Shown piece by piece: positions 32,818 to 50,598 of a DNA stretch of 64,000 bases (its first letter is position 1; every line of letters begins with the position of its first letter). Both the position numbers and the translations under genes were made by a program. Source of the stretch: Alcanivoracaceae bacterium (GTDB taxonomy: Bacteria; Pseudomonadota; Gammaproteobacteria; Pseudomonadales; Alcanivoracaceae); contig JAGLCJ010000016.1 in the NCBI GenBank assembly GCA_023146255.1, positions 14,478 through 78,477 on the forward strand, given 5' to 3'. The notes under the pieces are model-generated. The model searched no databases. It was not told the DNA's origin and saw only the letters and a program-made list of their open reading frames with translations.

Positions 32818-32821
32818 CTCC

Positions 32822-32882
32822 CCTGCAGGAGCGGCCGACCGGCCGCGAAAGCTCTTCGCGGTCGATCGACCGCTCCTACAGG
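32822..32882. repeat. Family C REP pair, copy 2
   Basis: CCTGCAGGAGCGGCCGACCGGCCGCGAAAGC TCTTCGCGGTCGATCGACCGCTCCTACAGG. It overlaps the TetR stop codon and is probably a terminator-like hairpin. Confidence 0.8.
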
Positions 32883-33550
32883 GCGTCCTTCTGCACCGTC
32901 AGAACGTCACCAAGGCGGGCGCCGCTGAGCAGGGCGCGGGCGCCGAGAAACACCATCGACAGCTGCACCACCACCCGGTCGCGACCGGCGCGGCGCTGGG
33001 CCGGCGTCATGTCCAGCGCCAGAATGCCGTAGCCGAACATCACCGCCACCGCCGCCTCGGCGGCGCGCAGGTCGTCCACCGGCGGCAGGTTGCGGTGCTC
33101 GCCGACGCTGCGGACATCGTCCGCCAGCTCCTCCACCAGCAGCTGCAGCTCACGGTGCACCCGGCGACGAATACTGGCCGAGGTGCCGAGGCGTTGCTGC
33201 ACCAGCAGACGGAACTCGGCCTCGTTGCCGGCCAGATAGGCCAGAAAGCGGTCGACCAGATCGCGTACCCCACTGGCCGGATCGGCTACGATCAGTTCGC
33301 GCCGGCCCTGGCGCATGGCATTGCGCAGTCGGAAGCAGGCCTGATCCACCAGCGCCTGACCAAGGCTGTCCATATCGGGAAAGTGGTTATACAGCGACGG
33401 CGCCGCCAGCTCGGCCTGCCGCGCCACCTCTCGCAGGCCGAGGCTGTCGAGACCGCGGCCGCTGACCAGCAGCTGCATCGCCGCATCGAGGATCTTTTGC
33501 CGGGTCAGGGCCTTGCGTTCGGCTCGGTTCAGGGTCATGACCTGCTCCAC
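32876..33550 (-). CDS. TetR family transcriptional regulator
   Basis: 224 aa with an N-terminal HTH (LGLREVARQAELAAPSLYNHFPD). It is divergent from the fatty acyl-CoA reductase gene. Confidence 0.85.
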   Translation of the reverse strand: MEQVMTLNRAERKALTRQKILDAAMQLLVSGRGLDSLGLREVARQAELAAPSLYNHFPDMDSLGQALVDQACFRLRNAMRQGRRELIVADPASGVRDLVDRFLAYLAGNEAEFRLLVQQRLGTSASIRRRVHRELQLLVEELADDVRSVGEHRNLPPVDDLRAAEAAVAVMFGYGILALDMTPAQRRAGRDRVVVQLSMVFLGARALLSGARLGDVLTVQKDAL

Positions 33551-33853: not shown

Positions 33854-35866
33854 ATGAATTACTTTGTCACTGGCGCCACCGGCTTTATCGGTCGCTTTCT
33901 GCTTGCCCGCTTGCTGAACCGCAAGGACAGTCGCGTTTTCGCCCTGATCCGTCCCGGTTCCGAATACAAGCTGGATGCCCTGCGCCGGCGCCTGAATGTC
34001 GAGCCGGAGCGTCTGGTTGGCATCAAGGGCGACCTGACCAAAAAAGTGCTCGGCGTCAGCAAGCGCGATCGCGACGATCTCGCCGCCGCGAAAATTGATC
34101 ACTTTTTCCATCTGGCGGCAATCTACGATCTCACCGCCGATGAAAACCAGCAGCGCTATACCAACATCGAAGGCACCCGCAACGCCCTGCGTCTTGCCGA
34201 GGAGCTGAACGCCGGCTGCTTCCATCACATCAGCTCGGTGGCCGCCGCCGGCCTGTATGACGGCACCTTCCGTGAAGACATGTTCGATGAAGCTGGCGAG
34301 CTGGCCGACGCCTACCTGCAGACCAAACACGAAGCCGAAGCGCTGGTGCGACTGGAAGCGAAACTGCCGTGGCGCATCTACCGCCCGTCCATGGTGGTTG
34401 GCCACTCGCAGACCGGCGAGATGGACAAGATTGATGGCCCCTATTACTTCTTCAAACTGATCCAGAAACTCAGCGACGTACTGCCGCCCTGGGTGCCGCT
34501 GCTCGGCATCGAAGGTGGCCAGTTCAATATTGTCCCGGTGGATTTTGTTGCCAGCGCCATTGATCACATTGCCCATGTGCCGGACCGCGACAGCCAGTGC
34601 TTCCACCTGACTGCCGACCGTCACTACAGCGTCGGCGAAGTCATGAACATTTTCGCCGGCGTTGCCGATGCACCGAAAATGCCGGTGCGTATCGACAACA
34701 GCGTGTTCGAAGCGGTGCCGGGCATGGTTCGCAAGGGCATCAGCTCGCTGACTCCGGCAAAGTTTTTCCTGCATCAGGCTCTGGAAGGCCTGGATATTCC
34801 CGAGTCGGCACTGAAGTTCCTCAGCTACCCGACCAGTTTCGACAACAGCAACGCCAAGGCCGCGCTGAACGGTAGCGGCATTGAAGCACCGGAACTGGAA
34901 GCCTATGCCCAGCTGCTTTGGGATTACTGGGAAAACCATCTGGACCCGGACCGTGACTCGCGCGAAGACGACAACGCACCGTCAATCAGCCTGGAAGAGC
35001 GCGTTGCCGGCAAGGTGGTGCTGGTCACCGGCGCCACCTCCGGTATCGGCAAGGCCGCCGCGCTGAAACTGGCCCGTGCCGGCGCCATCGTGCTGGTGGT
35101 GGCCCGTACCGCAGAAAAGCTGGAAGAAACCCTGCACGAAATCGAACAGCTCGGCGGCAAGGCGTTCTCCTACAGCGCTGACGTATCGCACCTGGACGAC
35201 TGCGACCGCCTGATCAAGCAGATTATTGCCGACCATGGTCAGGTCGATATTCTGGTCAACAATGCCGGCCGTTCCATTCGTCGCTCGGTGGAGCATTCAT
35301 TTGATCGCTTCCACGATTTCGAACGGACCATGCAGCTGAACTACTTCGGCGCCCTGCGCCTGATCATGCAGCTGCTGCCGTCCATGACCCAGCGTGGCAG
35401 CGGTCACATCATCAACATCTCCTCGATTGGTGTCCTGACCAACGCGCCGCGTTTCTCGGCTTATGTTGCTTCCAAGGCGGCGCTGGATGCATTCACCCGC
35501 TGCGCGGCGTCGGAGCTTGCCCACCACGGCATTCGCTTCACCACCATCAACATGCCGCTGGTGCGCACGCCGATGATCGCGCCGACCAAGATCTACAACC
35601 ATGTGCCGACCATCAGCCCGAATCAGGCCGCCGACATGATCTGTGATGCCATCGTGCGCCAGCCCAAGCGGATCGCCACCAGTCTCGGTATTGTCGGCCA
35701 GGTGATGCACTTCCTGACCCCGAAGATCACCGAAACCATCATGAATACCGGCTACAAGATTTTCTCCGACTCGTCTGCGGCACTGGGCCAGAAAGAGAAA
35801 ACCCCGAAGCGGATCAGCCGCGAGCAGCAAGCCTTCTCACGGCTGTTCAAGGGCATCCACTGGTAA
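33854..35866 (+). CDS. Two-domain fatty acyl-CoA reductase (N-terminal NAD-binding reductase domain plus C-terminal Acr1-like SDR)
   Basis: 670 aa. N-terminal Rossmann VTGATGFIG with YxxxK (YLQTK). The second domain has VTGATSGIG, NNAGRSIRRS, FDRFHDFERTMQLNYFG, YVASK and PLVRTPMIAPTKIY, and ends ...LFKGIHW as Acinetobacter Acr1 does. The architecture resembles the roughly 660-aa Marinobacter alcohol-forming reductase. Confidence 0.85.
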   Translation: MNYFVTGATGFIGRFLLARLLNRKDSRVFALIRPGSEYKLDALRRRLNVEPERLVGIKGDLTKKVLGVSKRDRDDLAAAKIDHFFHLAAIYDLTADENQQRYTNIEGTRNALRLAEELNAGCFHHISSVAAAGLYDGTFREDMFDEAGELADAYLQTKHEAEALVRLEAKLPWRIYRPSMVVGHSQTGEMDKIDGPYYFFKLIQKLSDVLPPWVPLLGIEGGQFNIVPVDFVASAIDHIAHVPDRDSQCFHLTADRHYSVGEVMNIFAGVADAPKMPVRIDNSVFEAVPGMVRKGISSLTPAKFFLHQALEGLDIPESALKFLSYPTSFDNSNAKAALNGSGIEAPELEAYAQLLWDYWENHLDPDRDSREDDNAPSISLEERVAGKVVLVTGATSGIGKAAALKLARAGAIVLVVARTAEKLEETLHEIEQLGGKAFSYSADVSHLDDCDRLIKQIIADHGQVDILVNNAGRSIRRSVEHSFDRFHDFERTMQLNYFGALRLIMQLLPSMTQRGSGHIINISSIGVLTNAPRFSAYVASKAALDAFTRCAASELAHHGIRFTTINMPLVRTPMIAPTKIYNHVPTISPNQAADMICDAIVRQPKRIATSLGIVGQVMHFLTPKITETIMNTGYKIFSDSSAALGQKEKTPKRISREQQAFSRLFKGIHW

Positions 35867-35890
35867 GCCATCGGCGCAGCGGCAAGCGCA

Positions 35891-35929: not shown

Positions 35930-36039
35930 CTGGCGGTCAGGCACGGTGGGTGATGGTGTCCATATTTCCCGCTTTATGAGACCATCGCGGCCATAGCGCG
36001 CCCTGCGCCTGCCCCCATATCTGCCCCGGTACACTGTCC

Positions 36040-38229: not shown

Positions 38230-38252
38230 AGAGACTACTGACAACCTCTCCC

Positions 38253-38346
38253 GTAGGAGCCGTCGATCGACGGCGAATAGCTTCGCGGCCGATCGGCCGC
38301 TCCTACAGAAAATCTACACGGCCGGAGCCGTCGATCGACGGCGAAG
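38253..38346. repeat. Family C REP cluster, copy 3 (three units)
   Basis: GTAGGAGCCGTCGATCGACGGCGAA, the inverted unit TTCGCGGCCGATCGGCCGCTCCTAC, and a third unit GGAGCCGTCGATCGACGGCGAAG. Confidence 0.8.
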
Positions 38347-38370
38347 TTAGCTGGCACTTTGCCAGACCGC

Positions 38371-38396
38371 AAAGAGGCGCTTCCAGGCGCCTCTTT
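38371..38396 (+). terminator. 10-bp perfect hairpin downstream of the YcaO gene (weak terminator candidate)
   Basis: AAAGAGGCGC-TTCCAG-GCGCCTCTTT with no long T tract. The stem resembles the katG terminator. Confidence 0.35.
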
Positions 38397-38587
38397 CGCC
38401 TCCATCTCAGCCGATATCCTCACCGCCATTCTCGCCAATCTCCCCCCTGCCTTTATCAGAACGTGATCTGAATCAAGACCCGATTAATTCTGGCTATCAA
38501 CGCTATGCAAAGCCTGCGTTAGGGTGATATGAACACCATGATCTATAAGTGGTGTTATTGCGCAGACAGCCAGACAAGCTGTGCTAA

Positions 38588-40870
<2,283 letters not shown>

Positions 40871-40896
40871 TTACCACATTCTTTGCGGAAGTGACT

Positions 40897-40923
40897 GAGG
40901 CGCCGAATGGCGCCTCTTTCTTT
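40897..40923 (+). terminator. Rho-independent terminator after katG
   Basis: GAGGCGCC-GAAT-GGCGCCTC followed by TTTCTTT. Confidence 0.75.
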
Positions 40924-40959
40924 GGCTTGCCGTGCCCATGTCTTTCAAAGACTCCGGTT

Positions 40960-41424
40960 TCAGCGTGCAAGAAGGTCTTTCGCCGCCTTGAGGCTGTCGC
41001 CCTCTTTTGCCAGCTCTTTTCTTGCAAATGCCTCAATGGCTTTTTCATGCGCATAGACATAGGCAAAAAATTTCTTGTCCTCACCTTCGGCATGATCTTT
41101 CAGCCGCAGGAATTTTTCCTGAAAAGGCTGAGTGGCATCGCGCACCAGCCTCATGGCCAGCCACCAGGGCATCAGGCCCAGCGCGGCGCCCTCGGCCTTG
41201 CCTTTTAACGCCCAACCGGTTGGCTCGACAATGGACTGACCGGTCGCCGTCATGTAATCAAGGTAACGTTGCAGCGTCTGCTCCTCCAACGCCTTGAGCA
41301 CCAGCCACTTCTGCTTGCGCTCTGCGTTTCTTGTCAAACGCGCAGCGATGTCAAAAACCGCAGAGCCGTAAACCTCGGACTCATGGATGTGTTGCAAGTC
41401 CTTCTTGTACTCGGGATAAGTCAT
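40960..41424 (-). CDS. Hypothetical helical protein (154 aa)
   Basis: Balanced composition. Its ATG overlaps the stop of the upstream alpha/beta hydrolase gene by 4 nt. I recognise no family. Confidence 0.55.
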   Translation of the reverse strand: MTYPEYKKDLQHIHESEVYGSAVFDIAARLTRNAERKQKWLVLKALEEQTLQRYLDYMTATGQSIVEPTGWALKGKAEGAALGLMPWWLAMRLVRDATQPFQEKFLRLKDHAEGEDKKFFAYVYAHEKAIEAFARKELAKEGDSLKAAKDLLAR

Positions 41425-42353
41425 TGTTCATCTCCTGACTGTTTCGTCGTGAAAGCTTTGCTGCCCGCAGCCAGTTCTGCCAGCGCCTGTTCCAGTGCCC
41501 CGAAATAGGCCTCGGGACTTTCGATAAAGGGCATATGCCCGACATTCTGGAACACCACCAGTCTGGCGTTTGCAATATTGCCAGCGAGCACCAGCGACTG
41601 CTCCGAAGGCACCACCGGGTCATCAGAACCGGTCAACAGATAGCAAGGCGTCCTGATCTGGTCCAACTGGCCAGCAATCTCGATGCTGCTGATCCCGTTA
41701 AGCAGGACAAATAGTGCGCCGGCATCCTGGTTGAGAACATCCGCCTCAATGTTGTCCAGAAAACGCTGGCTTAAAGGGTTGGCACGGTATGCCCTGGGAT
41801 CACAGGCAAGCATGCTGGCAAAGATTGTGCGCACAAGGCGGCTTTTTTTCGCGATAAAAAGATTGGCTACAAACAGCCCTTTCGCCCAATTGCCGAGCCC
41901 GGCAAGTTTCAGCAGCTGCCCTTCGACCCCTCCCCACACTCCGCGGTGAAAGCCGGCGACACTGACAATGCCAATGACATTCGGCACCTGATGAATAGCA
42001 AGATTCAGGGCACTGAAACCGCCCGTTGAGTGGCCCACGATAATGACTTTTCTATCGCCCAGCAGCGCCTTCAATGCACCGTTCATGATGCGAAAGAACC
42101 AGTCTTCGTTGACTTGCCCGGGCTGAAAGTCCTGCGGCGCCGTCGACGGGTAATGGGCGGGCAAACCCAGAGCAAACCAGGCTTTATCCTCCCTGAAGGC
42201 GGGCGGCACACAGTCGCGCCAGCAGTTGACCGAAGCCAATACCCCGTGAATAAACACGATTGCCGGCTCGCCCTCTCTGGCCCGATGCTCGTTTACCGCG
42301 AGGAACGCCAGCTGATGACCTTCCGCCTCTACCAACCCTTCCCGTACCTTCAT
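41421..42353 (-). CDS. Alpha/beta hydrolase
   Basis: Trimmed to ATG 42353 (MKVREGLVEAEG). Nucleophile elbow GHSTGG and a C-terminal GHMPF. Confidence 0.8.
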   Translation of the reverse strand: MKVREGLVEAEGHQLAFLAVNEHRAREGEPAIVFIHGVLASVNCWRDCVPPAFREDKAWFALGLPAHYPSTAPQDFQPGQVNEDWFFRIMNGALKALLGDRKVIIVGHSTGGFSALNLAIHQVPNVIGIVSVAGFHRGVWGGVEGQLLKLAGLGNWAKGLFVANLFIAKKSRLVRTIFASMLACDPRAYRANPLSQRFLDNIEADVLNQDAGALFVLLNGISSIEIAGQLDQIRTPCYLLTGSDDPVVPSEQSLVLAGNIANARLVVFQNVGHMPFIESPEAYFGALEQALAELAAGSKAFTTKQSGDEQ

Positions 42354-42474
42354 GATCTTGCCCCTGCCTCCGCATGACAGCGCTTCAGCCAGCCCCACTA
42401 AAACACGGAGAAATGAACACCGGCAACGGACAGCAGGTTAACATGCCGCATCAGGGTGGCATTGAACGAAAGAG

Positions 42475-43215
42475 CTAAAGCCGGTTGGACTGCTGCAGCG
42501 CTCGCAGGGCATCCAGATAGGTCAGGCCAAAGGACTCGGAGAACGCACGACTCATATGCGCCAGATCGCTGAAGCCCGCCATCATCGCCGCCTCCCCCGG
42601 CGGAGTTGCATCCAGCAACGCATCCATTGCCACCCTCAGCTTGAGCCACTTTTTGTAGCTGCGCACCGGAACGCCAGTGCGCTCGACAAACCAGTGCGAG
42701 AATCGGGTCGGGGACAAATTCGCGATTGCGGCGAGCGAGTCCCGGTCGACATCCTCACCATCCCCCAGTTTCGCCCTGATTTCGCCGATTACCGCCTTGA
42801 ACCTGTGGTCCTCGGAAGCGGCAAGATCGGCCGCGTCGAGGGCGCCGGAATGCAACAGCTCGCGCAGGTCAGTACTGGCGGTAATGGACGCCAGCTCCCG
42901 CGGAAGTTGTTCATGGGAAAGTGACAGCCAGCCTGCCTGCGCATCCTTGTTCAGCGCCTTGAGAATGGACTCACTCAAAGGATCAAAATAGATGGAGCAC
43001 ACAAAGCCGGAAAGTAAACGATGGGTTGTTTTCGAGGCGAAATAGGCGGCTTTTGCTCTCTGCAGCCCGGCAGAGGTTTCGAATTCCAGGTCACCATCCA
43101 GTGCTATGGTGATTTGCGAGGCCCAATGACCATGCGCCTTGTTTTCAGCAACATGGCCGCGAAATATCGCCACCCTATCTGAAAAAACGATGTCTCCCTT
43201 CCAGTCTTTGGGCAT
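42475..43215 (-). CDS. AraC family transcriptional regulator
   Basis: Trimmed to ATG 43215. The C-terminus has a double HTH (LSPTRFSHWFVERTGVPVRSY..., AAMMAGFSDLAHMSRAFSESFG). It is divergent from the reductase/GMC operon. Confidence 0.85.
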   Translation of the reverse strand: MPKDWKGDIVFSDRVAIFRGHVAENKAHGHWASQITIALDGDLEFETSAGLQRAKAAYFASKTTHRLLSGFVCSIYFDPLSESILKALNKDAQAGWLSLSHEQLPRELASITASTDLRELLHSGALDAADLAASEDHRFKAVIGEIRAKLGDGEDVDRDSLAAIANLSPTRFSHWFVERTGVPVRSYKKWLKLRVAMDALLDATPPGEAAMMAGFSDLAHMSRAFSESFGLTYLDALRALQQSNRL

Positions 43216-43459
43216 AAACGACCTTCGTTGTGGAAGAACATAAGAGTGACCGGATAGCACGCTGCACTAGCACGAAAACACAGCGTGCCATCCAGCCAGT
43301 AATACGCCACCCGAGCGCTCATCTGCTTATACTGTACAAACCACCAGTCAACAACCCCGTCCACCCTGTCACCCGTCGACAACTTTCTCCCCCCTGTGTA
43401 CTGGCGCAAAAAGCGGCGCAGAATAGACTGCCTTCGTTCCTGACAACCGGAGATGCAGC

Positions 43460-44458
43460 ATGTCACGACGAATCACTCTTGGCGGAATTGCCCTTGGCGT
43501 GCCGGATCTGCGGCCCCATGCGAAGCGCTTTGTCGAAAGCGCAGCCCGCGGGGTGCATCAGCGGCTGATGCCGAATGCGGCGCTGCGGCATCGGGTCAAG
43601 GGCAAGGTGGTGCTGATTACCGGGGCCAGTTCCGGCATTGGTGCCGGGGTGGCGCACAAGCTGGCCGAGGCCGGCGCCACGGTGCTGCTGACGGCGCGGT
43701 CTATTGATGCACTGGAGGATCTGGCGGCGAAGATCCGTGATAACGGCGGTGATGCGGTGGCGTACCGGGCGGATATTGCCGATCTCGACGATTGCGACCG
43801 GCTCTGCCAGAAGGTGCTGGAAGATCATGGCCGGGTCGACATCCTGATCAATAATGCCGGCCGCTCAATCCGGCGTTCGGTGGTGTATTCGCTGGAGCGC
43901 TTCCACGATTACCAGCGCACCATGCAGCTGAATTATTTCGGCGCCATCCGCCTGGCCATGAACCTGATTCCGGCAATGAAAGAGAACGGTGACGGCCACA
44001 TTATCAATGTCACCACCGTTGGCGTGTTCAACGGCGTGCCGCGTTTCTCAGCCTATCTGGGTTCAAAGTGCGCGCTGGAAGGCTGGACCATGGCGGCGCA
44101 GAACGAGCTTTTGCATACCGGCGTCAGCTTTACCCTGATGAACTACCCGCTGGTGCGCACGCCGATGATCGCGCCGACCAAGATCTACGATTACTTCCCG
44201 GCGATGAGCCCGGAGAAGGCGGTGGACTGGATGTGCGAGGCGATTGTGACCCGGCCGAAACGGAAGGTGACCGCTTTTGGCCTGTTTGCACAGGGCATGT
44301 ACACGGTGCTGCCGAAGACCGCCGAGCTGATCGTCAACACCGGCTACCAGATCGTGCCGGAGTTCTTTGGCAAGGAAAAGCAAGGCTCTGGCAGTAAGTC
44401 AGCGCTTGCAAGCGAGGAAGCTGACAGCAATGTCCGGCCGCTGCGCCGGCGCAAGTAG
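43460..44458 (+). CDS. Acr1-like SDR, probable aldehyde-forming fatty acyl-CoA reductase
   Basis: 332 aa with GGAG 7 nt upstream. Blocks ITGASSGIG, NNAGRSIRRS, RFHDYQRTMQLNYFG, YLGSK and PLVRTPMIAPTKIY. It aligns by eye over its whole catalytic domain with the C-terminal half of the 33854-35866 protein. Confidence 0.8.
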   Translation: MSRRITLGGIALGVPDLRPHAKRFVESAARGVHQRLMPNAALRHRVKGKVVLITGASSGIGAGVAHKLAEAGATVLLTARSIDALEDLAAKIRDNGGDAVAYRADIADLDDCDRLCQKVLEDHGRVDILINNAGRSIRRSVVYSLERFHDYQRTMQLNYFGAIRLAMNLIPAMKENGDGHIINVTTVGVFNGVPRFSAYLGSKCALEGWTMAAQNELLHTGVSFTLMNYPLVRTPMIAPTKIYDYFPAMSPEKAVDWMCEAIVTRPKRKVTAFGLFAQGMYTVLPKTAELIVNTGYQIVPEFFGKEKQGSGSKSALASEEADSNVRPLRRRK

Positions 44459-44547
44459 GCTCCAGCCCTGCCCCGGCTTACCCGATGCTGCAGAAACAAC
44501 TGCGCGATAGGACAAGCCAAAAGTACTAGATCGGCTACACTCGGAGC

Positions 44548-46482
44548 ATGACTGAAGCCCTGACTGACATCCTGCCCGACCTGCCGCGCCCGGATACCGC
44601 CCGGGCGCTGGTGCAGGCCATGCTGCCCGCCGGCGAGCAATTGCCGGCCGCCGATGCCGACCGCCTGTGTGCCACGGTGGCCGGCTATCTGGACGGCCGG
44701 CCCGGCTTTCGTCGCTTGCTGACTGCCAGCCTCGCCTGGCTGGAAAGCCGCTCCCTGTTCAGCCATGGCAAACGCTTTAGCCGCCTGAGCCCGGAGCAGC
44801 GCGAGGCGCTGTTGTCGAGCCTGTCCGGCACACTGGTCAGCGGCCACCTGCTGCGGGCTCTGGCAGCGCCATTCAAGGCCGCCTGGCTGCTGGATGACGA
44901 GACCCAGCGCCGGGTCGGCAGCCGCCCTCCGGTGCAGGTGCCAAAGCAGATCGAGGCGTTCCGCTGGCAGGCCCAGGTCAGCCCGGCCCGGGACATGGAA
45001 GAAGATCTGGAACTGGAAGCCGATGTCGTCGTCATCGGCACCGGTGCCGGTGGCGCCGCCGCCGCCTACGAGCTGGCCAGCCGTGGCCTCGCCGTGGTGA
45101 TGATCGAGGAAGGCGAGTACTACAACCGCACCCATTTCACCGGCAAGCTCACTGACACCATCGCCAAGCTGTATCGCGGCCTTGGCGCTACCACGGCGCT
45201 GGGCAATGTCACCATTCCGGTGCCGATCGGCCGCAGTGTCGGTGGCACTACCACGATCAATTCCGGTACCTGTTTGCGCACGCCTGAAGCGGTGCTGGCG
45301 CGTTGGCAGAAAGAGTTCGGCTTAACCGAGCTGACGCCGGAAAATCTTGATCCGTTTTTTGCCAGCGTTGAGGAAGTGATTAACGTGACGCCGGCGGAGA
45401 GCAAATACGTCGGCGAAATCGGTAATGTGATTGCCGACGGCGCCCGCAAGATTGGCCTGAGCAAACTGCACAATCTGCCACGCAACGCCAAAGGCTGCGA
45501 TGGTCAGGGCCTGTGCCAGTTCGGCTGCCCCACCGATGCCAAGCAATCGACCAATGTCAGCTATGTGCCGCGGGCGCTGGATCGCGGCGCGTTTCTGTTT
45601 ACCGGTTTTCGCGCGGAGAAACTGTTACACCGCCAGCAGGTGCTGGAAGGCGTGGTCGCCACCGGCAAGCGCGACGACGGCAGCATTGTTCGGCTGACCG
45701 TGCGCGCGCCGAAAGTGGTGGTGGCCATGGGCAGCCTGCTGACGCCGCTGTTTCTGAAACAGAATGGCGTGCGTAATCCGCACCTTGGCCGGCACCTGAC
45801 CATTCATCCGGTCGGCGTAGTGAATGCAGTATTCCCGGAACGTGAGTTCGCCAATTCGCAAACCATTCCACAGGGTTTTGGCGTGGCAGATTTCGCCGAG
45901 CAGGGGCTGATGTTCGAGGGCGGCACCATTCCGTTTGCCGGCCATGGCCTGTTCAGCAATCTGTATGGCCGCGAGTTTGTCCGCTTCTGCGAACGCTACC
46001 AGCATACCGCCTATTTCGGCTTCATGATCCGCGATACCAGCGAGGGCCGGGTGCGCCGTGGTCCGCATCGCGATCTGCCCTGGATCAGCTATCAGATGAA
46101 CGATCAGGATTTCAGCCTGTTCCTGAAGGGCATTGAAACGCTGGCGCGGATTTATCTGGCCGCTGGCGCCCGGGAAGTGCTGATTCCCGGCCTGAACCGG
46201 CTGATCACTGTGCGTAACGAACAGGAGCTGGCGAGCTTTATGGCGCGCAAGCACAAACCGAAGGATTTCCTGATGAGCGCCTATCACCCGCTCGGCACCG
46301 CGCGCATTGCCGCCGATGCCAGCCGCGGTGTGTGCGGGCCCGATCATCAGGTATTTGGCTGGAACGGCCTGTATGTGATGGATGGCAGTAGTGTACCGAG
46401 CAGTCTTGGTGCCAATCCTCAGGTCACCATCATGACGCTGGCCGCCCGGGCCGCGTCGAAACTTGCAGACTCACTCTCTTAA
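44548..46482 (+). CDS. GMC-family FAD oxidoreductase with about 150-aa N-terminal extension (long-chain alcohol oxidase-like)
   Basis: 644 aa with the FAD loop VVVIGTGAGGAAAAYELA and a C-terminal GMC block HPLGTARIA...LYVMDGSSVPSSLGANPQVTIM. The substrate is inferred only from context. Confidence 0.8.
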   Translation: MTEALTDILPDLPRPDTARALVQAMLPAGEQLPAADADRLCATVAGYLDGRPGFRRLLTASLAWLESRSLFSHGKRFSRLSPEQREALLSSLSGTLVSGHLLRALAAPFKAAWLLDDETQRRVGSRPPVQVPKQIEAFRWQAQVSPARDMEEDLELEADVVVIGTGAGGAAAAYELASRGLAVVMIEEGEYYNRTHFTGKLTDTIAKLYRGLGATTALGNVTIPVPIGRSVGGTTTINSGTCLRTPEAVLARWQKEFGLTELTPENLDPFFASVEEVINVTPAESKYVGEIGNVIADGARKIGLSKLHNLPRNAKGCDGQGLCQFGCPTDAKQSTNVSYVPRALDRGAFLFTGFRAEKLLHRQQVLEGVVATGKRDDGSIVRLTVRAPKVVVAMGSLLTPLFLKQNGVRNPHLGRHLTIHPVGVVNAVFPEREFANSQTIPQGFGVADFAEQGLMFEGGTIPFAGHGLFSNLYGREFVRFCERYQHTAYFGFMIRDTSEGRVRRGPHRDLPWISYQMNDQDFSLFLKGIETLARIYLAAGAREVLIPGLNRLITVRNEQELASFMARKHKPKDFLMSAYHPLGTARIAADASRGVCGPDHQVFGWNGLYVMDGSSVPSSLGANPQVTIMTLAARAASKLADSLS

Positions 46483-46492
46483 GGAGCACACC

Positions 46493-46945
46493 ATGGCCAC
46501 CGGACTTCTGCTTTGCGAAACCATGAGCGGCGATCTGATTCTTGATCGTGATGGCATCAGCCGCCCGTTCGCGTTTTCGATCCGCGCTTTTACCACGAAA
46601 ATTTTCAGCCTCAGCACGCCGCGCTATTTCCGTGGCATGGTGACGCTCGATGATGGCCAGTATCCGTGCCGTGGTGAGCTCACCATTCATATGTCCGGGC
46701 CGCATTACTGGCTCGAATTCAATCATCCGGAGCTTGGCCCGGTGCGTGCTGAAGGGCAGAAGGAATATGGCAAAAATGGTCTGCTCCGTTCGCTGATTAC
46801 CTGTCCACTGACGATCACGAGCAACGGCAAGCAAATTGGTCAGGCGGAAGTAGCCTATCGCGATTCGATGTTGGCGTTCCCGTTCAAGGCGATCCGCTTT
46901 GTCGATGAAGGCAAGGCCTTTGATATGGTCAGCAGCGCGTCATGA
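46493..46945 (+). CDS. Hypothetical protein (150 aa)
   Basis: Trimmed to ATG 46493. Its SD AAGGAG overlaps the GMC stop codon. I recognise no family. Confidence 0.6.
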   Translation: MATGLLLCETMSGDLILDRDGISRPFAFSIRAFTTKIFSLSTPRYFRGMVTLDDGQYPCRGELTIHMSGPHYWLEFNHPELGPVRAEGQKEYGKNGLLRSLITCPLTITSNGKQIGQAEVAYRDSMLAFPFKAIRFVDEGKAFDMVSSAS

Positions 46946-47919
46946 TTCCCTACCACGGCTGTCAGCATCGCGGTCAGGCCGGGCATTACGAGTCCTGGTT
47001 TCTTCGCGCCAATCATCCGTCGAAGCCGCAGGCATTCTGGATCCGCTACACCCTGTTTGTGCCGAAAGACAACCGGCCCTCGCTGGGTGAGCTGTGGGCG
47101 ATCTGGTTTGATGGCGAGCAGGACCGGGTGGTGGCGGTGAAGCAGGAGCACCCGCTCGACGGTTGCAGTTTCAGCCATGACAAGATGTCGGTGCGGATCG
47201 GCGATGCCGAACTCGACAGCCACCGTTTGAAAGGCAGCGCCAAACACAATGGCCACGAGATCCGCTGGTGTCTGGGCTACGAAGGCGAGCCGGAGCCGCT
47301 GCTGTTTCTGCCGGAAAATCTCTATAGCACCAAACTGCCGAAAGCGAAGTCGGTGGTCAGCCGGCCGCAGGTGCAGTACCGCGGCAAGATCACTGTCGAT
47401 GGCGAGGAGATGGTGGTCGATCACTGGCCCGGCAGCGAGAACCACAACTGGGGCAGCCAGCACACCGACCGCTATGCCTGGGGACAGGTGGCGGCCTTTG
47501 ATGATGCCCCGGGGGCTTTTCTGGAATGCATCACCGCACAGGTCAAGGTCGGGCCGCTGCGCTCGCCGTGGATGAGCATTGCCTGCCTGCGGCTGGAAGG
47601 CCGCGATTACCTGTTCAACAGCCTTGGCCGGGCGTTCCGCGCCGACGGCAGCTACCACTTTTTTGACTGGCAGATGAGCACCAGCAACGGCCGGGAGAGC
47701 CTGAGCGTGTCGATCAGCGCACCCGCCAGCCACTTCACCGCCCTGACCTATTACAACCCTCCCAAGGGCAGCAAAACCTGCCTGAACAGCAAGATCGCCC
47801 GCTGCGAGGCACGGTTCAGCCAGCCCGGCCAGCCGGAGCGCATCCTCACCAGCGCCCACGGCGCTGCCTTCGAGATCCTCACCGAGCGGAACGATCACGG
47901 TATCCCGCTGTCCGTCTGA
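46942..47919 (+). CDS. Hypothetical protein (325 aa), possibly tocopherol-cyclase-like / beta-barrel hydratase fold
   Basis: The ATG overlaps the upstream stop (ATGA). Blocks HYESWFLRANHP...FWIRYT and DHWPGSENHNWGSQHTDRYAWGQ recall the FEGWYF... and EKNWG...W.W.Q blocks of the tocopherol cyclase family. This is from memory and unverified. The 367-aa antisense ORF is Ala/Gly/Arg-rich and was rejected. Confidence 0.6.
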   Translation: MIPYHGCQHRGQAGHYESWFLRANHPSKPQAFWIRYTLFVPKDNRPSLGELWAIWFDGEQDRVVAVKQEHPLDGCSFSHDKMSVRIGDAELDSHRLKGSAKHNGHEIRWCLGYEGEPEPLLFLPENLYSTKLPKAKSVVSRPQVQYRGKITVDGEEMVVDHWPGSENHNWGSQHTDRYAWGQVAAFDDAPGAFLECITAQVKVGPLRSPWMSIACLRLEGRDYLFNSLGRAFRADGSYHFFDWQMSTSNGRESLSVSISAPASHFTALTYYNPPKGSKTCLNSKIARCEARFSQPGQPERILTSAHGAAFEILTERNDHGIPLSV

Positions 47920-48053
47920 GCCGCCGACGGCGTTGCCGTCGGCGTCAGAAGTGCGCATTGGCTCACAAAACGCTAGTATCGAAGGTCCGCTCTCCGGTTG
48001 GCTTTGAAGCCGGCCGGGCCGGCAAGGATGAGACCATTACCAGGGTACGCGCC

Positions 48054-49580
48054 ATGGCAGGCAGTACAGCAGGATTGCATCAGGTGGGTGTCAGTATCAG
48101 GGACAAGTTCGTCAATGTGCGTCGCAATCTGAGCGACAGCCTCGGCCCCCTTCTGCCCGACTATTTTCCGGTGGCCTGGAAACTGGGCCTGTCGATTTCT
48201 ATCATGATTCTACTGGGCATGGCGGTGCTGGGCAGCCTGATCATGAACAGTCAGCTTGACCGGATGCAACAGCAAGCCGATCAGTTTGGCAGCACGCTGG
48301 CCCAACAGCTGGCCGATACCACCCGCGAGCCGTTGCTGGCAGAAGACACCTTCAGCCTGAACATCATTCTCGGCAACCTGATGCAGAGCGATTCGCTACG
48401 CGGCGCGGCACTGTTTGATCGCCACGGCAATCTGATCGAGCAGGCCGGCACTCTGCCTCAGGACATTCTGCCCACCGCTGGCGGCAGCCTGCTGCGCTGG
48501 CGTAGTGGCAATGAAATGCTGACCACCTATTTTGCTCCGGTACGCATCAACGACCTGACTGCCGGGCACGCTGCAGTGAGCGTTTCGCGCGCACCGATTG
48601 ATGCCGCCCGTCAGGAGGTGCGCAGCGCCATTTTGACTGCCACGCTGGTGATGAGCCTGATCGCCATCGTCGTCGCCTTTCTGGTTAGCCGGCGATTGTC
48701 GCAACCCATTCATGATTTGCTCGAGGCGGCCAGCGCGCTGCGCGACGGCAATCTGGAATTCCGTTTGTCCGATCGCCGTAATGACGAGATTGGTCAGCTG
48801 GTGGACGCTTATCACAATATGGCTTCCGGACTGCTGGAAAAAAATCAGGTGGAGAAAGTGCTGTCACGCTTTGTCAGCCCTACAGTGGCAAAAAAGATGA
48901 TGGCCGACCTGAAGCAGGTATCGCTCGGTGGCCGCGAAGTGGAAGCCACGGTGGTGTTTGCCGACATCGTCGGCTTCACCAGACTGTCGGAAAGCATTAC
49001 TCCGGATGCAGTGGCTGAATTGCTGAACGCTTACTTCGATGCGATTTCCATGGCGGCAACCTTCTACCGTGGCACCATCGACAAATACATGGGTGATTGC
49101 GCCATGATCGTGTTCGGCGTACCAGAGGATGATGCCGAGCATGCCTACCACGGTCTGTGCTGCGCGGTGATGATCCAGCGCCTGGTTGATCGCCTGAACA
49201 TCATGCGCCAGCGCCGCGGCCTGACCACGGTGAGTTTCCGCATCGGCATCAACTCCGGCAACATGCTGGCGGGCAACCTGGGCTCCCATGACCGAATGCA
49301 GTACACCGTGGTGGGCGACTCGGTGAATCTGGCTTCACGCCTGTCGAATATGGCCAGCGCCGGGGAAGTGGTGGCATCGGAAGAGATGGTGTCCAATCCG
49401 AATGTTCGTCCACGAGTGCGGCTGCGGCAATCCGGGGCCATGCGAATTCGCGGCCGCAACGAGTCGGTCAATACTTTTATCGTTGAAGGCGTACACGCAC
49501 AATCAGAGACGCTGATGGAACAGCGCATCGCCACCTTTATCAATCAGCTGATGGATACACCACGACGTGCTGCCGAATAA
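48054..49580 (+). CDS. Membrane-bound class III adenylate/guanylate cyclase with HAMP domain
   Basis: ORF 47958 (TTG)..49580 provisionally trimmed to ATG 48054, so the start is uncertain. Two TM segments flank a periplasmic segment. HAMP (NDEIGQLVDAYHNM) and cyclase blocks VVFADIVGFT, KYMGDCAMIVFG and VVGDSVNLASRL. Confidence 0.82.
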   Translation: MAGSTAGLHQVGVSIRDKFVNVRRNLSDSLGPLLPDYFPVAWKLGLSISIMILLGMAVLGSLIMNSQLDRMQQQADQFGSTLAQQLADTTREPLLAEDTFSLNIILGNLMQSDSLRGAALFDRHGNLIEQAGTLPQDILPTAGGSLLRWRSGNEMLTTYFAPVRINDLTAGHAAVSVSRAPIDAARQEVRSAILTATLVMSLIAIVVAFLVSRRLSQPIHDLLEAASALRDGNLEFRLSDRRNDEIGQLVDAYHNMASGLLEKNQVEKVLSRFVSPTVAKKMMADLKQVSLGGREVEATVVFADIVGFTRLSESITPDAVAELLNAYFDAISMAATFYRGTIDKYMGDCAMIVFGVPEDDAEHAYHGLCCAVMIQRLVDRLNIMRQRRGLTTVSFRIGINSGNMLAGNLGSHDRMQYTVVGDSVNLASRLSNMASAGEVVASEEMVSNPNVRPRVRLRQSGAMRIRGRNESVNTFIVEGVHAQSETLMEQRIATFINQLMDTPRRAAE

Positions 49581-50598
49581 ACTGCTTGCTGTTCTGTTCG
49601 TTGCTGCTGCAATGGCGGGCTGCGTTGGCCCGGTGCCAATGCATGTGGATGCCGAGGAGGAGCTGGCAGCAGCAAGAAAGGCCGGCGATCATGTCCGGGC
49701 TCTGGAAATTGTCGAGCACATCTCAGCGCAACATCCCCAGTACGATGCCCTGATCAAGCAGCGCGAAGCGGTGCTGCAAGATATCGAAAAGCATCAGCAC
49801 GCCCGCATCAGGGAAGCCGGCAACCTTGCCTCCAGTGGTCGCTGGCAGGAAGCCTTTGCAGTGATGGACGAGCTTGATCGACAGTGGCGCGGCAGCGGCC
49901 TGATTGCTCAGGCGCGTCATGATCTTGAGGAACGACAGATGCTTCGCTATCACCAGCTTGCTGCAGACGTGCTGGTATCGGAAGCAAAGTGGATTATCAG
50001 CCAGCAAGCGAGCAAGGAGCAGTTACGCACCCTGACTGAGCGCGATGCCAACAGCCTTGTACAGCAGCTGGAAGAACGCCAGATCAATGTCGCCGAACAG
50101 ATGAACCGACTCGGCCATTATTTTGCCGACAGAAAGGATTGGCCACGCACCCGTGATCTGCTTGGTAATGCACGCGCGCTGAGTGGCGTGGAGGAACGTG
50201 ATCCGCGACTGACAGAAGCAGAGCGACAACTGGCAGGGGCTGCCCACCGGCAGGAACGACTGATCGCACAACGCACCAGCCAGCGAGCCGACACCCTGAT
50301 TGAGCAGTACCGGAAAACTGAATCCATCAAGGATCTGATTGCCGCCCGTGATTACCTGCAAAGCAACAATCAGGATGGCAGTCTGGATGAGGAAGCGACT
50401 CGACTGGAAAGCCTGTCACGGGAGCGGTTCCGGGCTGGCCTGAAAGGGGGGGACAGTCTGTATGCGGCCGGCGACTATGCCGCTGCGGAAAAAGTCTGGA
50501 AGGAAGTTGCGCCACTCTACCCCAATGATGCCGAACTGGCTGGCAAGCTGGAGCGGGTCAGCAAGGTACTGGAAAACCTGAAAACACTGGGACGCTGA
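49567..50598 (+). CDS. Helical lipoprotein (343 aa), translationally coupled to the cyclase
   Basis: The GTG start overlaps the cyclase 3' end by 14 nt. Lipobox AAAMAGC. Long helical, TPR-like sequence. I recognise no family. Confidence 0.6.
   Translation: MLPNKLLAVLFVAAAMAGCVGPVPMHVDAEEELAAARKAGDHVRALEIVEHISAQHPQYDALIKQREAVLQDIEKHQHARIREAGNLASSGRWQEAFAVMDELDRQWRGSGLIAQARHDLEERQMLRYHQLAADVLVSEAKWIISQQASKEQLRTLTERDANSLVQQLEERQINVAEQMNRLGHYFADRKDWPRTRDLLGNARALSGVEERDPRLTEAERQLAGAAHRQERLIAQRTSQRADTLIEQYRKTESIKDLIAARDYLQSNNQDGSLDEEATRLESLSRERFRAGLKGGDSLYAAGDYAAAEKVWKEVAPLYPNDAELAGKLERVSKVLENLKTLGR

What the first reader, a model, noticed from the sequence alone, without database searches (positions are those of the whole stretch)
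43460..47919. Tightly coupled four-gene operon: Acr1-like acyl-CoA reductase, extended GMC flavoprotein and two uncharacterised proteins, under a divergent AraC regulator
Four + strand genes run with spacings of 89 nt, 10 nt (the SD overlaps the previous stop) and -4 nt (ATGA). They are divergent from an AraC regulator (42475-43215), which is followed by an alpha/beta hydrolase and a coupled unknown protein.

Gene 1 carries the diagnostic blocks of the Acinetobacter Acr1-type aldehyde-forming fatty acyl-CoA reductase (NNAGRSIRRS, RFHD.QRTMQLNYFG, PLVRTPMIAPTKIY). Gene 2 is a GMC FAD oxidoreductase with an extra N-terminal domain of about 150 aa. The GMC family includes long-chain alcohol oxidases and the algal fatty-acid photodecarboxylase. 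Gene 3 (150 aa) matches nothing I recognise. Gene 4 (325 aa) has blocks that recall tocopherol-cyclase-like beta-barrel enzymes.

I know of no described pathway that unites these four activities. The arrangement suggests a dedicated route that converts an acyl-CoA-derived fatty aldehyde or alcohol into a modified lipid (oxidised, cyclised or hydrated), or a hydrocarbon-type product.
Basis: partly seen in the sequence, partly recalled or inferred. Interest (0 to 1): 0.72.

Follow-up and report, generated by a model that had tools for sequence, protein, structure and literature searches.

The report
Iron-sulfur flavoprotein dehydrogenase with barrel partners
The four genes are real, but the conserved unit is an uncharacterised three-protein module (an iron-sulfur flavoprotein alcohol dehydrogenase plus two beta-barrel proteins) found in many bacteria, which only the oil-degrading Alcanivorax family has placed next to fatty acyl-CoA reductase genes.

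Summary
The four + strand genes, their spacings (89 nt, 10 nt, ATGA overlap) and the quoted motifs are all present as described.

- **Gene 1** is 49% identical to Acinetobacter Acr1.
- **Gene 2** is a GMC flavoprotein with two extra features. It has an invariant Cx5Cx3CP motif that aligns with the 3Fe-4S ligands of FAD-glucose dehydrogenase. It also has a fused N-terminal domain resembling that enzyme class's small "hitchhiker" subunit, but without a Tat signal.
- **Gene 3** models as an eight-stranded beta-barrel with no Pfam, NCBIfam or PDB relative.
- **Gene 4** models at pLDDT 95.5 as an AttH/tocopherol-cyclase-type double barrel.

Genes 2-4 are the evolutionary core. The gene 3 domain is found fused to either end of the GMC, or to gene 4, in other lineages. 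The module occurs in gammaproteobacteria and Myxococcota, and gene 4 is in about 600 or more species.

Reductase linkage is confined to Alcanivoracaceae. There the ancestral order is TetR / long FAR / (short Acr1-like) / GMC / gene 3 / gene 4. The AraC, hydrolase and unknown protein lie in a strain-specific island and are not conserved partners.

Function is unknown. My best inference is a cytoplasmic complex that oxidises or modifies a long-chain lipid alcohol or aldehyde. I found no publication describing it.

The parts
32876..33550 (-). TetR-family regulator, divergent from the long reductase. Probably the ancestral regulator of the Alcanivoracaceae cluster.
   Evidence: Pfam TetR_N. The same TetR/FAR pairing sits directly upstream of GMC-g3-g4 in Alcanivorax sp. 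DP30.
33854..35866 (+). Long two-domain fatty acyl-CoA reductase (670 aa; NAD_binding_4 plus an Acr1-like SDR domain). In relatives it lies immediately upstream of the short reductase and GMC; here it is separated from them by a 7.6-kb insertion.
   Evidence: Pfam hits. blastn synteny with L009, L011 and L016. Its C-terminal half is 56% identical to gene 1.
38230..43323 (.). Strain-specific island holding KatG (38615-40870, +), a 154-aa ORF (40960-41424, -), an alpha/beta hydrolase (41421-42398, -) and an AraC-type regulator (42475-43215, -). It is adjacent to the conserved unit but not part of it.
   Evidence: No tblastn hit for the hydrolase or the 154-aa ORF in any related locus, and only one weak AraC-type hit, away from the module, in distant L052. 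Homology with L006 and L008 breaks at about 38220 and resumes at about 43324-43339. The same slot holds a BNR-like protein or a type I restriction-modification system in relatives.
43324..43459 (+). Conserved leader/promoter region of gene 1.
   Evidence: Near-invariant in three genomes that have different upstream neighbours, and more conserved than the coding sequence. No Rfam family and no sigma-70 consensus match.
43460..44458 (+). Gene 1: short, single-domain Acr1-like fatty acyl-CoA reductase (SDR).
   Evidence: adh_short 160.8 bits. Matches the C-terminal half of NCBIfam PRK07201 at 365 bits. 49% identical to A. baylyi Acr1.
44548..46482 (+). Gene 2: GMC flavoprotein dehydrogenase with a fused N-terminal hitchhiker/gamma-like domain and a 3Fe-4S cysteine motif. 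No Tat or Sec signal and no transmembrane segment.
   Evidence: GMC_N 154.6 bits and GMC_C 70.9 bits. Hydropathy and N-terminus check. Alignment to BcGDH alpha.
44596..44829 (+). Gene 2 residues 17-94: Gluconate_2-dh3 (small/hitchhiker subunit)-like domain.
   Evidence: Pfam PF13618, 29.0 bits against a cut-off of 23.4, E 1.6e-6. Detected in 6 of 19 homologues and in precomputed Pfam lists.
45496..45531 (+). Gene 2 C317-x5-C323-x3-C327-P328: putative 3Fe-4S ligands.
   Evidence: Invariant in 19 diverse homologues and present in every full-length orthologue found next to a gene 4 homologue. HMMER aligns the three cysteines to BcGDH alpha Cys212/218/222, which ligate the 3Fe-4S cluster (PMC6719666).
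46285..46416 (+). Gene 2 H580 to N623: GMC catalytic His/Asn pair.
   Evidence: Both invariant. They align to BcGDH His476/Asn519 with the same 43-residue spacing.
46493..46945 (+). Gene 3: 150-aa eight-stranded up-and-down beta-barrel with no described family. It is the connector domain that occurs fused to the GMC or to gene 4 elsewhere.
   Evidence: Exhaustive HMMER search found 47 cluster representatives. Fusions. AlphaFold model pLDDT 88.8. No significant PDB fold match.
46942..47919 (+). Gene 4: 325-aa double beta-barrel of the AttH / tocopherol-cyclase / CrtC-type hydratase fold, with the invariant block WxGS[EQ]NHNWGxxHTDxYAWGQVxxFD (47425-47502).
   Evidence: AlphaFold pLDDT 95.5, pTM 0.92. 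Foldseek: 2ich E 1.8e-10, 7a0q, 7e5u, 9g4c. Conservation. Tocopherol-cyclase motifs from PMC4963081.
47922..47944 (+). Perfect 10-bp GC-rich hairpin 3 nt after the gene 4 stop, with no T-tract. Possible end of the transcription unit.
   Evidence: Read directly from the sequence. The terminator scan did not call it.

Best explanation
Genes 2, 3 and 4 encode one cytoplasmic enzyme module, and probably a physical complex.

- **Gene 2** oxidises a CH-OH group by hydride transfer to FAD through its His580/Asn623 pair. It then passes the electrons through a surface 3Fe-4S cluster (Cys317/323/327) to an external acceptor, probably quinone. No cytochrome subunit is encoded here.
- **Gene 3** is a small calycin-like barrel, and **gene 4** is a tocopherol-cyclase/AttH-fold double barrel. 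I infer that they hold the hydrophobic substrate.
- **Gene 4** probably also catalyses an acid/base addition or elimination step (hydration, O-C ring or bond closure, or elimination) on the same molecule, as every characterised member of its fold does.

In Alcanivoracaceae the module was recruited directly downstream of fatty acyl-CoA reductase genes. In this organism its substrate is therefore most likely a long-chain (possibly branched) fatty alcohol or aldehyde made from acyl-CoA by the Acr1-like enzyme (aldehyde) and the long FAR (alcohol).

**Shown here:** gene structure, domain content, motif alignment, fusions, distribution and synteny.

**Inferred:** complex formation, Fe-S content, the lipid nature of the substrate, the role of gene 4 and the electron acceptor.
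For: **One functional unit**
- The gene 3 domain is fused to the N-terminus of the GMC in five proteins of 731-793 aa.
- It is fused to the C-terminus of the GMC in a Polyangiaceae genome (hhalign probability 96.4%, E 1.4e-9).
- It is fused to the N-terminus of gene 4 in 470- and 476-aa proteins, including one in Fluviicoccus.
- The order GMC-g3-g4 and the 4-nt overlaps recur.
- The Cx5Cx3CP motif is in every full-length orthologous GMC found next to a gene 4 homologue (about 39 ORFs).

**Fe-S dehydrogenase class**
- The three invariant cysteines and the His/Asn pair align to BcGDH Cys212/218/222 and His476/Asn519.
- There is a Gluconate_2-dh3 hit above Pfam's cut-off.
- No signal peptide or transmembrane segment was found.

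**Long-chain alcohol link**
- A reductase gene lies upstream on the same strand in all 19 Alcanivoracaceae-type loci with enough upstream sequence, and 3 further truncated loci end in a reductase fragment. In some genomes both a long FAR and a short Acr1-like gene are present.
- Gene 1 is 49% identical to Acr1.
- Gene 2 is 34% identical (E 7e-62) to A. borkumensis ABO_1174, with the cysteine motif aligned. [quoted passage not shown]
- A related split gamma + alpha pair on an Alteromonas plasmid is followed by an aldehyde dehydrogenase gene.
- The catalytic loop (AYHPLGT) resembles that of choline oxidase rather than the sugar-binding NNH of BcGDH.

**Gene 4 as an enzyme on hydrophobic substrates**
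- Its fold matches are hydratases, a lyase and pericyclases that act on prenyl, steroid or polyketide substrates.
- It has about 60 invariant, largely polar or aromatic residues at 50-55% identity across phyla.
Against: - There is no experimental datum for any of the three core proteins.
- All characterised Fe-S/hitchhiker GMC dehydrogenases act on sugars or polyols and are periplasmic with a cytochrome c subunit.
- The reductase linkage is a single-lineage synteny, so it may reflect one historical event.
- Elsewhere the module sits among housekeeping genes (serA, rpiA, ilvA), which gives no lipid hint.
- A reductase that makes alcohol next to a dehydrogenase that re-oxidises it looks futile.
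- Gene 4 homologues occur without an adjacent GMC in many phyla, so gene 4 need not depend on gene 2.
- The hitchhiker-like assignment rests on one 29-bit Pfam hit, seen in only 6 of 19 homologues. BLAST against a genuine gamma subunit found nothing.
Confidence: 0.45

Rival explanations
1. One reading: a dedicated four-gene operon under the divergent AraC regulator converts acyl-CoA-derived aldehyde or alcohol into a cyclised, hydrated or hydrocarbon product.
For: Tight spacing and translational coupling. An Acr1-like reductase lies directly upstream. Gene 4 has a cyclase/hydratase-type fold.
Against: The AraC, hydrolase and 154-aa protein are absent from the corresponding position in related loci and lie in a variable island. 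The reductase is absent from the module outside Alcanivoracaceae. The GMC has Fe-S dehydrogenase features, and no fatty-acid photodecarboxylase appears among the 60 best PDB sequence matches. Nothing points to hydrocarbon formation.
Confidence: 0.08
2. The module handles isoprenoid alcohols (pristanol, phytol, farnesol or polyprenols). The GMC oxidises the primary or allylic alcohol, and gene 4 hydrates or isomerises a trisubstituted double bond, as tocopherol cyclase, CrtC and kievitone hydratase do.
For: All characterised relatives of the gene 4 fold act at prenyl-type double bonds or tertiary carbons (tocopherol-cyclase motifs). The paralogue ABO_1174 is expressed only on the isoprenoid alkane pristane. 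Isoprenoid alcohols are universal, which would fit the wide distribution of gene 4.
Against: The evidence comes from a 34%-identical paralogue, not an orthologue. No isoprenoid genes recur next to the module. The linked reductases are ordinary fatty acyl-CoA reductase types.
Confidence: 0.15
3. The module oxidises a sugar, polyol or glycolipid head group, like its Fe-S/hitchhiker GMC relatives. Its position next to the reductases in Alcanivoracaceae is incidental.
For: Every characterised member of the 3Fe-4S/hitchhiker class is a sugar or polyol dehydrogenase (PMC6719666). Gene 4's conserved residues are rich in Trp, Asn, His, Asp and Arg, as in carbohydrate sites. Outside Alcanivoracaceae the neighbours are housekeeping genes.
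Against: The enzyme is cytoplasmic, with no sugar transporter or kinase nearby. The catalytic loop lacks the sugar-binding Asn-Asn of BcGDH. The partners have lipid-binding-type barrel folds. The reductase linkage persists across genera despite insertions.
Confidence: 0.15
4. Genes 3 and 4 are not substrate-side enzymes. They are quinone-binding acceptor subunits that replace the cytochrome c subunit of classical complexes, since tocopherol cyclases bind prenylquinols.
For: No cytochrome is encoded nearby. In relatives the 3Fe-4S cluster sits at the surface and needs a partner. The fusions show that the proteins are in contact.
Against: Gene 4 homologues of the same identity level occur without an adjacent GMC in Planctomycetota, Rhodocyclales, Dehalococcoidia and others, which argues for an autonomous enzyme. 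Extensive invariant polar residues suggest catalysis.
Confidence: 0.07

Closest known systems
[quoted passage not shown]
   Same: GMC catalytic scaffold. The Cx5Cx3C(P) motif aligns with the 3Fe-4S ligands Cys212/218/222. The His/Asn catalytic pair has the same 43-residue spacing. A Gluconate_2-dh3 (hitchhiker)-like domain is present.
   Different: The hitchhiker-like domain is fused to the N-terminus and has no Tat signal. The protein is predicted to be cytoplasmic. There is no multihaem cytochrome c subunit; the partners are two beta-barrel proteins instead. The substrate is unknown and probably not a sugar. Overall similarity is low (81 bits with a family profile).
A. borkumensis ABO_1174 (pristane-specific GMC 'alcohol oxidase', FAO1-like) and the split gamma + GMC + aldehyde dehydrogenase cluster on Alteromonas plasmid pKD02
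   Same: Same GMC subclass. 34% identity over 396 residues with Cx5Cx3C aligned. 31.6% identity to the plasmid protein, which has a separate Tat-signal gamma subunit gene.
   Different: These are paralogues. They have no fused gamma-like domain and no gene 3 or gene 4 partners. ABO_1174 has expression evidence only, with no biochemistry.
Acinetobacter baylyi Acr1 and the Marinobacter Maqu_2507 / M. tuberculosis FCR1-FCR2 reductases
   Same: Gene 1 is 49% identical to Acr1 along its whole SDR domain. It is 56% identical to the Acr1-like half of the window's own 670-aa reductase, which has the two-domain layout (NAD_binding_4 plus SDR) of the alcohol-forming Marinobacter and mycobacterial reductases. 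The family relationships are described in PMC3522743.
   Different: Gene 1 has an N-terminal extension of about 40 aa that matches the interdomain part of the long reductases. Its product (aldehyde or alcohol) has not been tested.
Tocopherol cyclase / AttH / CrtC-type hydratase fold (NE1406 AttH 2ich, kievitone hydratase 7a0q, fungal decalin-forming pericyclases, 25-phosphosteroid lyase 9g4c)
   Same: Double beta-barrel fold (Foldseek E 1.8e-10 to 8e-6, TM about 0.5-0.6). Contains blocks resembling the tocopherol-cyclase motifs YxEKNWG and WxWxQxNxF. Some orthologues are already named 'tocopherol cyclase family protein' by NCBI.
   Different: Below Pfam's Tocopherol_cycl threshold. No hit to the CrtC Pfam family at E 0.01 or better. 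Only 9-15% identity to any solved structure. The glutamate of the cyclase motif is E or Q here. About 165 residues shorter than plant tocopherol cyclase (488 aa in Arabidopsis). No photosynthetic or quinone context.

Membership tests
Acr1-type fatty acyl-CoA reductase (SDR) | Classical SDR domain with a TGxxxGIG cofactor motif and a catalytic YxxxK | tested here: met
   adh_short 160.8 bits. TGASSGIG and YLGSK are visible in the translation.
Acr1-type fatty acyl-CoA reductase (SDR) | Full-length similarity to characterised Acr1, including the NNAGRSIRR, RFHDxxRTMQLNYFG and PLVRTPMIAPTKIY blocks | tested here: met
   49% identity over 261 aa with no gaps, E 1e-92, against the A. baylyi protein retrieved.
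Acr1-type fatty acyl-CoA reductase (SDR) | NADPH-dependent reduction of long-chain acyl-CoA that stops at the aldehyde | not testable with these tools
   Needs an enzyme assay. The short M. tuberculosis homologue FCR2 gave both aldehyde and alcohol (PMC3522743, abstract).
3Fe-4S / hitchhiker-type FAD-dependent dehydrogenase (BcGDH class) | GMC N- and C-terminal domains with a His/Asn catalytic pair | tested here: met
   Pfam hits. H580/N623 are invariant and align to His476/Asn519.
3Fe-4S / hitchhiker-type FAD-dependent dehydrogenase (BcGDH class) | Cysteine-rich loop that supplies three ligands of a 3Fe-4S cluster | tested here: met
   C317/C323/C327 are invariant and align to Cys212/218/222. 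The presence of the cluster itself has not been tested.
3Fe-4S / hitchhiker-type FAD-dependent dehydrogenase (BcGDH class) | Small hitchhiker (gamma) subunit that carries a Tat signal for periplasmic export | tested here: not met
   A gamma-like domain is present but fused (PF13618, 29 bits; seen in 6 of 19 homologues). There is no twin-arginine motif or signal peptide. BLAST against a real gamma subunit found nothing.
3Fe-4S / hitchhiker-type FAD-dependent dehydrogenase (BcGDH class) | Multihaem cytochrome c electron-transfer subunit encoded alongside | tested here: not met
   No cytochrome gene in this cluster or in related loci.
Tocopherol cyclase (Pfam PF14249) | Score above the Pfam gathering threshold | tested here: not met
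   19.4 bits against 26.6. Weak hits are also recorded for many homologues.
Tocopherol cyclase (Pfam PF14249) | Conserved YxEKNWG and WxWxQxNxF motifs (PMC4963081) | tested here: inconclusive
   Gene 4 has GS[EQ]NHNWG, which is one residue longer and varies between E and Q, and YAWGQVxxF.
Tocopherol cyclase (Pfam PF14249) | Cyclisation of prenylquinols to chromanols | not testable with these tools
   Needs an enzyme assay.
AttH / CrtC-type hydratase fold superfamily | Two consecutive lipocalin-like beta-barrels | tested here: met
   Model pLDDT 95.5. Foldseek matches to 2ich, 7a0q, 7e5u and 9g4c at probability 1.00.
AttH / CrtC-type hydratase fold superfamily | Sequence membership of the CrtC/AttH Pfam families | tested here: not met
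   No such Pfam hit at E 0.01 or better.
Eukaryotic long-chain alcohol oxidase (FAO) and fatty-acid photodecarboxylase | Closest similarity to FAO or FAP sequences and their active-site residues | not tested
   No FAO sequence was available. The only link is indirect, through ABO_1174 and its FAO1 FunFam assignment. No photodecarboxylase is among the 60 best PDB matches.

The most novel reading that the evidence does not exclude
GMC, gene 3 and gene 4 form a previously undescribed cytoplasmic Fe-S flavoprotein complex that makes lipid esters or ethers without a WS/DGAT acyltransferase.

The long FAR supplies fatty alcohol and the Acr1-like enzyme supplies fatty aldehyde. The tocopherol-cyclase-fold protein joins the hydroxyl to the carbonyl (O-C bond formation, the chemistry its relatives perform). 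The GMC then oxidises the resulting hemiacetal to an ester, just as its closest solved Fe-S relatives oxidise the sugar hemiacetal to a lactone.

This would explain why an alcohol-forming reductase, an aldehyde-forming reductase and a dehydrogenase sit together.
Probability: 0.06. Interest if true: 0.85.

Novelty: new variant of a known kind. Interest (0 to 1): 0.55.

Why it matters
The module is widespread: gene 4 occurs in about 600 or more species across many phyla. Its parts are tied together by three independent fusion architectures, yet it has no name, no Pfam family for gene 3 and no literature I could find.

It extends the 3Fe-4S/hitchhiker class of flavoprotein dehydrogenases, which matter for biosensors, to a cytoplasmic, cytochrome-free form with beta-barrel partners. 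It also gives bacterial tocopherol-cyclase-like proteins, whose function has been an open question since 2016, a testable enzymatic partner.

In Alcanivoracaceae, key marine oil degraders and wax-ester producers, the module is the conserved neighbour of the fatty acyl-CoA reductases. It may therefore be an unrecognised step in fatty alcohol, aldehyde or wax-ester metabolism, or in branched-alkane metabolism. That would be relevant to bioremediation and oleochemical engineering.

Tried and rejected
- **Literature:** ten full-text searches found no paper on the gene combination. Motif searches in the A. borkumensis proteome supplement found no orthologues of genes 1-4, but that file is truncated and lists detected proteins only.
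- **Gene 4 on plasmids:** tblastn found no match.
- **Informative neighbours in genomes without an adjacent GMC:** only RecQ and DEAD helicases, a PIN protein, saccharopine dehydrogenase and similar genes, with nothing recurrent. My crude ORF caller also clustered GC-rich antisense ORFs with real genes, so I relied on tblastn counts instead.
- **Second conserved context in Ketobacteraceae-type genomes:** turned out to be housekeeping genes (serA, an FAD-linked oxidase, FAA hydrolase, rpiA, ilvA).
- **Gene 3 as a diverged copy of a gene 4 barrel:** hhalign probability 1.2%, rejected.
- **N-terminal domain of gene 2 against a genuine Tat gamma subunit:** no BLAST alignment.
- **Regulatory signals:** no Rfam family in 32000-50000. 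No sigma-70 or terminator signal above the shuffled expectation. No shared operator-like word between the long-FAR and gene 1 upstream regions.
- **ABO_1174 as an orthologue of gene 2:** rejected. It lacks the 150-aa extension and is only 34% identical, so it is a paralogue.

Full report
**Observation.** The junctions are as described: an 89-nt spacer, then a TAA stop embedded in AAGGAG 10 nt before the next ATG, then an ATGA overlap. A perfect 10-bp GC hairpin without a T-tract follows the last stop. A consensus scan found no terminator or sigma-70 promoter inside the cluster beyond the shuffled expectation. GC content is about 0.56-0.64 across the window, and the closest homologues are from Alcanivoracaceae.

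**Gene 1.** Pfam gives adh_short at 160.8 bits. NCBIfam matches the C-terminal half (positions 329-631) of the 657-residue PRK07201 model at 365 bits. I retrieved the real A. baylyi Acr1 from the protein collection, where it is named [quoted passage not shown]. It is also 56% identical to the C-terminal half of a 670-aa two-domain reductase (NAD_binding_4 plus SDR) encoded in the same window at 33854-35866. Acr1 forms aldehyde only, whereas the two-domain Marinobacter enzyme goes on to the alcohol (PMC3522743).

**Gene 2.** This is a GMC flavoprotein (GMC_N 154.6 bits, GMC_C 70.9 bits) whose FAD-binding GxGxxG starts at residue 164. Three features place it in a particular subclass.
1. Residues 17-94 hit Pfam Gluconate_2-dh3 at 29.0 bits against a cut-off of 23.4. 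This is the small "hitchhiker" subunit of membrane-bound flavoprotein dehydrogenases. The hit recurs in 6 of 19 diverse homologues and in many precomputed Pfam lists.
2. The motif C317-x5-C323-x3-C327-P is invariant in 19 homologues down to 32% identity. It is present in every full-length orthologue found next to a gene 4 homologue.
3. A family profile ranks Burkholderia cepacia FAD-glucose dehydrogenase alpha fifth in the PDB (81 bits). HMMER aligns the three cysteines to Cys212/Cys218/Cys222 and aligns H580/N623 to His476/Asn519. The crystal-structure paper shows that those cysteines ligate a surface 3Fe-4S cluster that relays electrons from FAD to a cytochrome c subunit, and that His476/Asn519 is the catalytic pair (PMC6719666).

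Unlike that class, gene 2 has no Tat or Sec signal and no transmembrane segment, and no cytochrome is encoded nearby. Its catalytic loop (AYHPLGT) resembles that of choline oxidase rather than the sugar-binding Asn-Asn-His of BcGDH. Nothing specifically links it to fatty-acid photodecarboxylase.

**Gene 3.** It has no Pfam, NCBIfam or PDB sequence hit. An exhaustive HMMER scan of 1.84 billion cluster representatives found only 47 relatives. Their aligned N-termini confirm the ATG at 46493 as the start. The AlphaFold model (pLDDT 88.8) is an eight-stranded up-and-down barrel. Its fold matches are weak and are to designed barrels, lipocalins, nitrophorin, avidins and LolA, none at E 0.001 or better.

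The key finding is that this domain is fused to different partners in different lineages:
- to the N-terminus of the GMC in proteins of 731-793 aa;
- to the C-terminus of the GMC in a Polyangiaceae genome (hhalign probability 96.4%, E 1.4e-9);
- to the N-terminus of gene 4 in 470- and 476-aa proteins, including a two-gene GMC + fusion operon in Fluviicoccus.

**Gene 4.** About 1,900 homologues were found, nearly all labelled "hypothetical"; a few are labelled "tocopherol cyclase family" by NCBI. Identity to the window protein stays at 50-55% even in the most distant of the 43 homologues aligned, which span several phyla, with about 60 invariant residues. The model is very confident (pLDDT 95.5, pTM 0.92). 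Foldseek matches:
- the AttH protein NE1406 (E 1.8e-10);
- kievitone hydratase;
- the fungal decalin-forming pericyclases Phm7, Fsa2 and CghA;
- 25-phosphosteroid lyase.

The invariant block WxGS[EQ]NHNWGxxHTDxYAWGQVxxFD resembles the YxEKNWG and WxWxQxNxF motifs proposed for tocopherol cyclases. The Pfam score is below threshold, and the motif glutamate varies between E and Q. Gene 3 and gene 4 are not detectably homologous.

**Distribution and context.** In a one-genome-per-species collection at least 595 loci encode a gene 4 relative. They come from Alcanivoracaceae, Moraxellaceae, Ketobacteraceae, Thiotrichales, Myxococcota, Planctomycetota, Rhodocyclales, Burkholderiales, Binatia, Acidobacteriota, Dehalococcoidia and others.

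Among the 84 loci fetched up to that point, about 50 have the orthologous GMC within 10 kb. In gammaproteobacteria the order is GMC-g3-g4. In Myxococcota a GMC, where checked carrying a fused gene 3 domain, lies next to gene 4, mostly in divergent orientation. In one metagenome-assembled genome, GMC + g3 and g4 lie 27 kb apart on the same contig. The remaining loci have gene 4 alone, with no recurrent neighbour.

A reductase gene lies upstream on the same strand in all 19 Alcanivoracaceae-type loci with enough upstream sequence, and 3 further truncated loci end in a reductase fragment. It is present in none of the 10 other gammaproteobacterial loci. In those others the module sits between serA / FAD-linked oxidase / FAA hydrolase and rpiA / ilvA.

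**The window's own arrangement.** In relatives such as L009, L011 and L016 the order is long FAR, short Acr1-like gene, GMC, g3, g4. In strain DP30 it is TetR (divergent), long FAR, GMC, g3, g4. In this window TetR (32876-33550) and the long FAR (33854-35866) are separated from gene 1 by 7.6 kb. That stretch holds an OsmC-YcaO gene and then a variable slot (about 38230-43323) with KatG, the 154-aa ORF, the hydrolase and AraC.

In the two closest relatives the same slot holds a 1043-aa BNR-like protein or a type I restriction-modification system. Neither the hydrolase nor the 154-aa protein has a homologue in any related locus, and the only AraC-type hit is weak and several kb from the module in the distant locus L052. 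Homology resumes about 135 nt upstream of gene 1. That leader is near-invariant in three genomes and is more conserved than the coding sequence. The AraC regulator is therefore a positional neighbour, not a conserved partner.

**Functional hints.** Gene 2 is more similar to A. borkumensis ABO_1174 (34% identity, E 7e-62, cysteine motif aligned) than to any solved GMC. [quoted passage not shown] It is a paralogue without the N-terminal extension. An Alteromonas plasmid encodes a split version: a Tat-signal gamma subunit, a GMC with Cx5Cx3CK, and then an aldehyde dehydrogenase. I found no paper that describes the GMC-g3-g4 module.

**Interpretation.** What is shown is a conserved three-protein module whose components are fused in three independent ways. 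It contains a GMC dehydrogenase with the sequence hallmarks of a 3Fe-4S relay, and in one bacterial family it has been stably recruited next to fatty acyl-CoA reductases.

What I infer is the following. The three proteins form a cytoplasmic complex. The GMC oxidises a hydrophobic alcohol and passes electrons through the Fe-S cluster to quinone or another acceptor. Gene 3 bridges and holds the substrate. Gene 4 catalyses an acid/base addition or elimination on it. In Alcanivoracaceae the substrate derives from acyl-CoA through the reductases.

Several things weigh against confidence. The reductase link is confined to one lineage. An alcohol-forming reductase next to an alcohol dehydrogenase looks futile. 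All characterised Fe-S/hitchhiker relatives act on sugars. Gene 4 often occurs without the GMC.

**Verdict.** The feature is best described as a new, uncharacterised variant of the Fe-S flavoprotein dehydrogenase complexes, with novel beta-barrel partners. It is of moderate to good interest because it is widespread, internally coherent and directly testable.

Noticed in passing
window 38230-43323: A variable island slot lies between the YcaO gene and the gene 1 leader. This genome carries KatG, a 154-aa ORF, an alpha/beta hydrolase and an AraC regulator there. Alcanivorax sp. 1008 carries a 1043-aa BNR-like protein, and a related metagenome-assembled genome carries a type I restriction-modification system.
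   Followed up: partly
window 43324-43459: The 135 nt upstream of gene 1 are near-invariant in three genomes, whereas the coding regions are about 83% identical. There is no Rfam family, no sigma-70 consensus and no inverted repeat. This may be an unrecognised regulatory leader.
   Followed up: partly
window 36040-38229: A 729-aa fusion of an OsmC-like domain with a YcaO cyclodehydratase domain, conserved in Alcanivorax sp. 1008.
   Followed up: no
window 47958-49580: A HAMP plus class III adenylate/guanylate cyclase protein follows gene 4 in most Alcanivoracaceae loci that extend far enough downstream (60-97% identity). It looks like a long-lived syntenic neighbour whose link to the module, if any, is unknown.
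   Followed up: no
window 40960-42398 and L003 9118-10564: In both this window and strain DP30, an alpha/beta hydrolase is coupled to a protein of about 155-165 aa near the cluster. The two pairs are not detectably homologous by tblastn, and only the DP30 small protein hits PRA-PH.
   Followed up: no
L033 11020-12717 (Noviherbaspirillum): A gene 4 homologue is followed by a different, shorter GMC oxidoreductase (565 aa, 24% identity) that lacks both the N-terminal extension and the cysteine motif. This looks like an independent GMC association with the same barrel protein.
   Followed up: partly
L088 (Sinorhizobium fredii NGR234 pNGR234a) 5498-7401: A plasmid GMC with the Cx5Cx3CP motif is preceded by a 125-aa hypothetical protein. 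It sits in a cluster with a UbiA prenyltransferase, an epimerase/dehydratase-family gene, a second NAD(P)-dependent oxidoreductase and an SMR transporter.
   Followed up: no
window 46855-47958 (- strand) and similar: Long antisense ORFs, for example 367 aa opposite gene 4, are artefacts of the high GC content. In my neighbourhood clustering they were grouped with real genes.
   Followed up: yes
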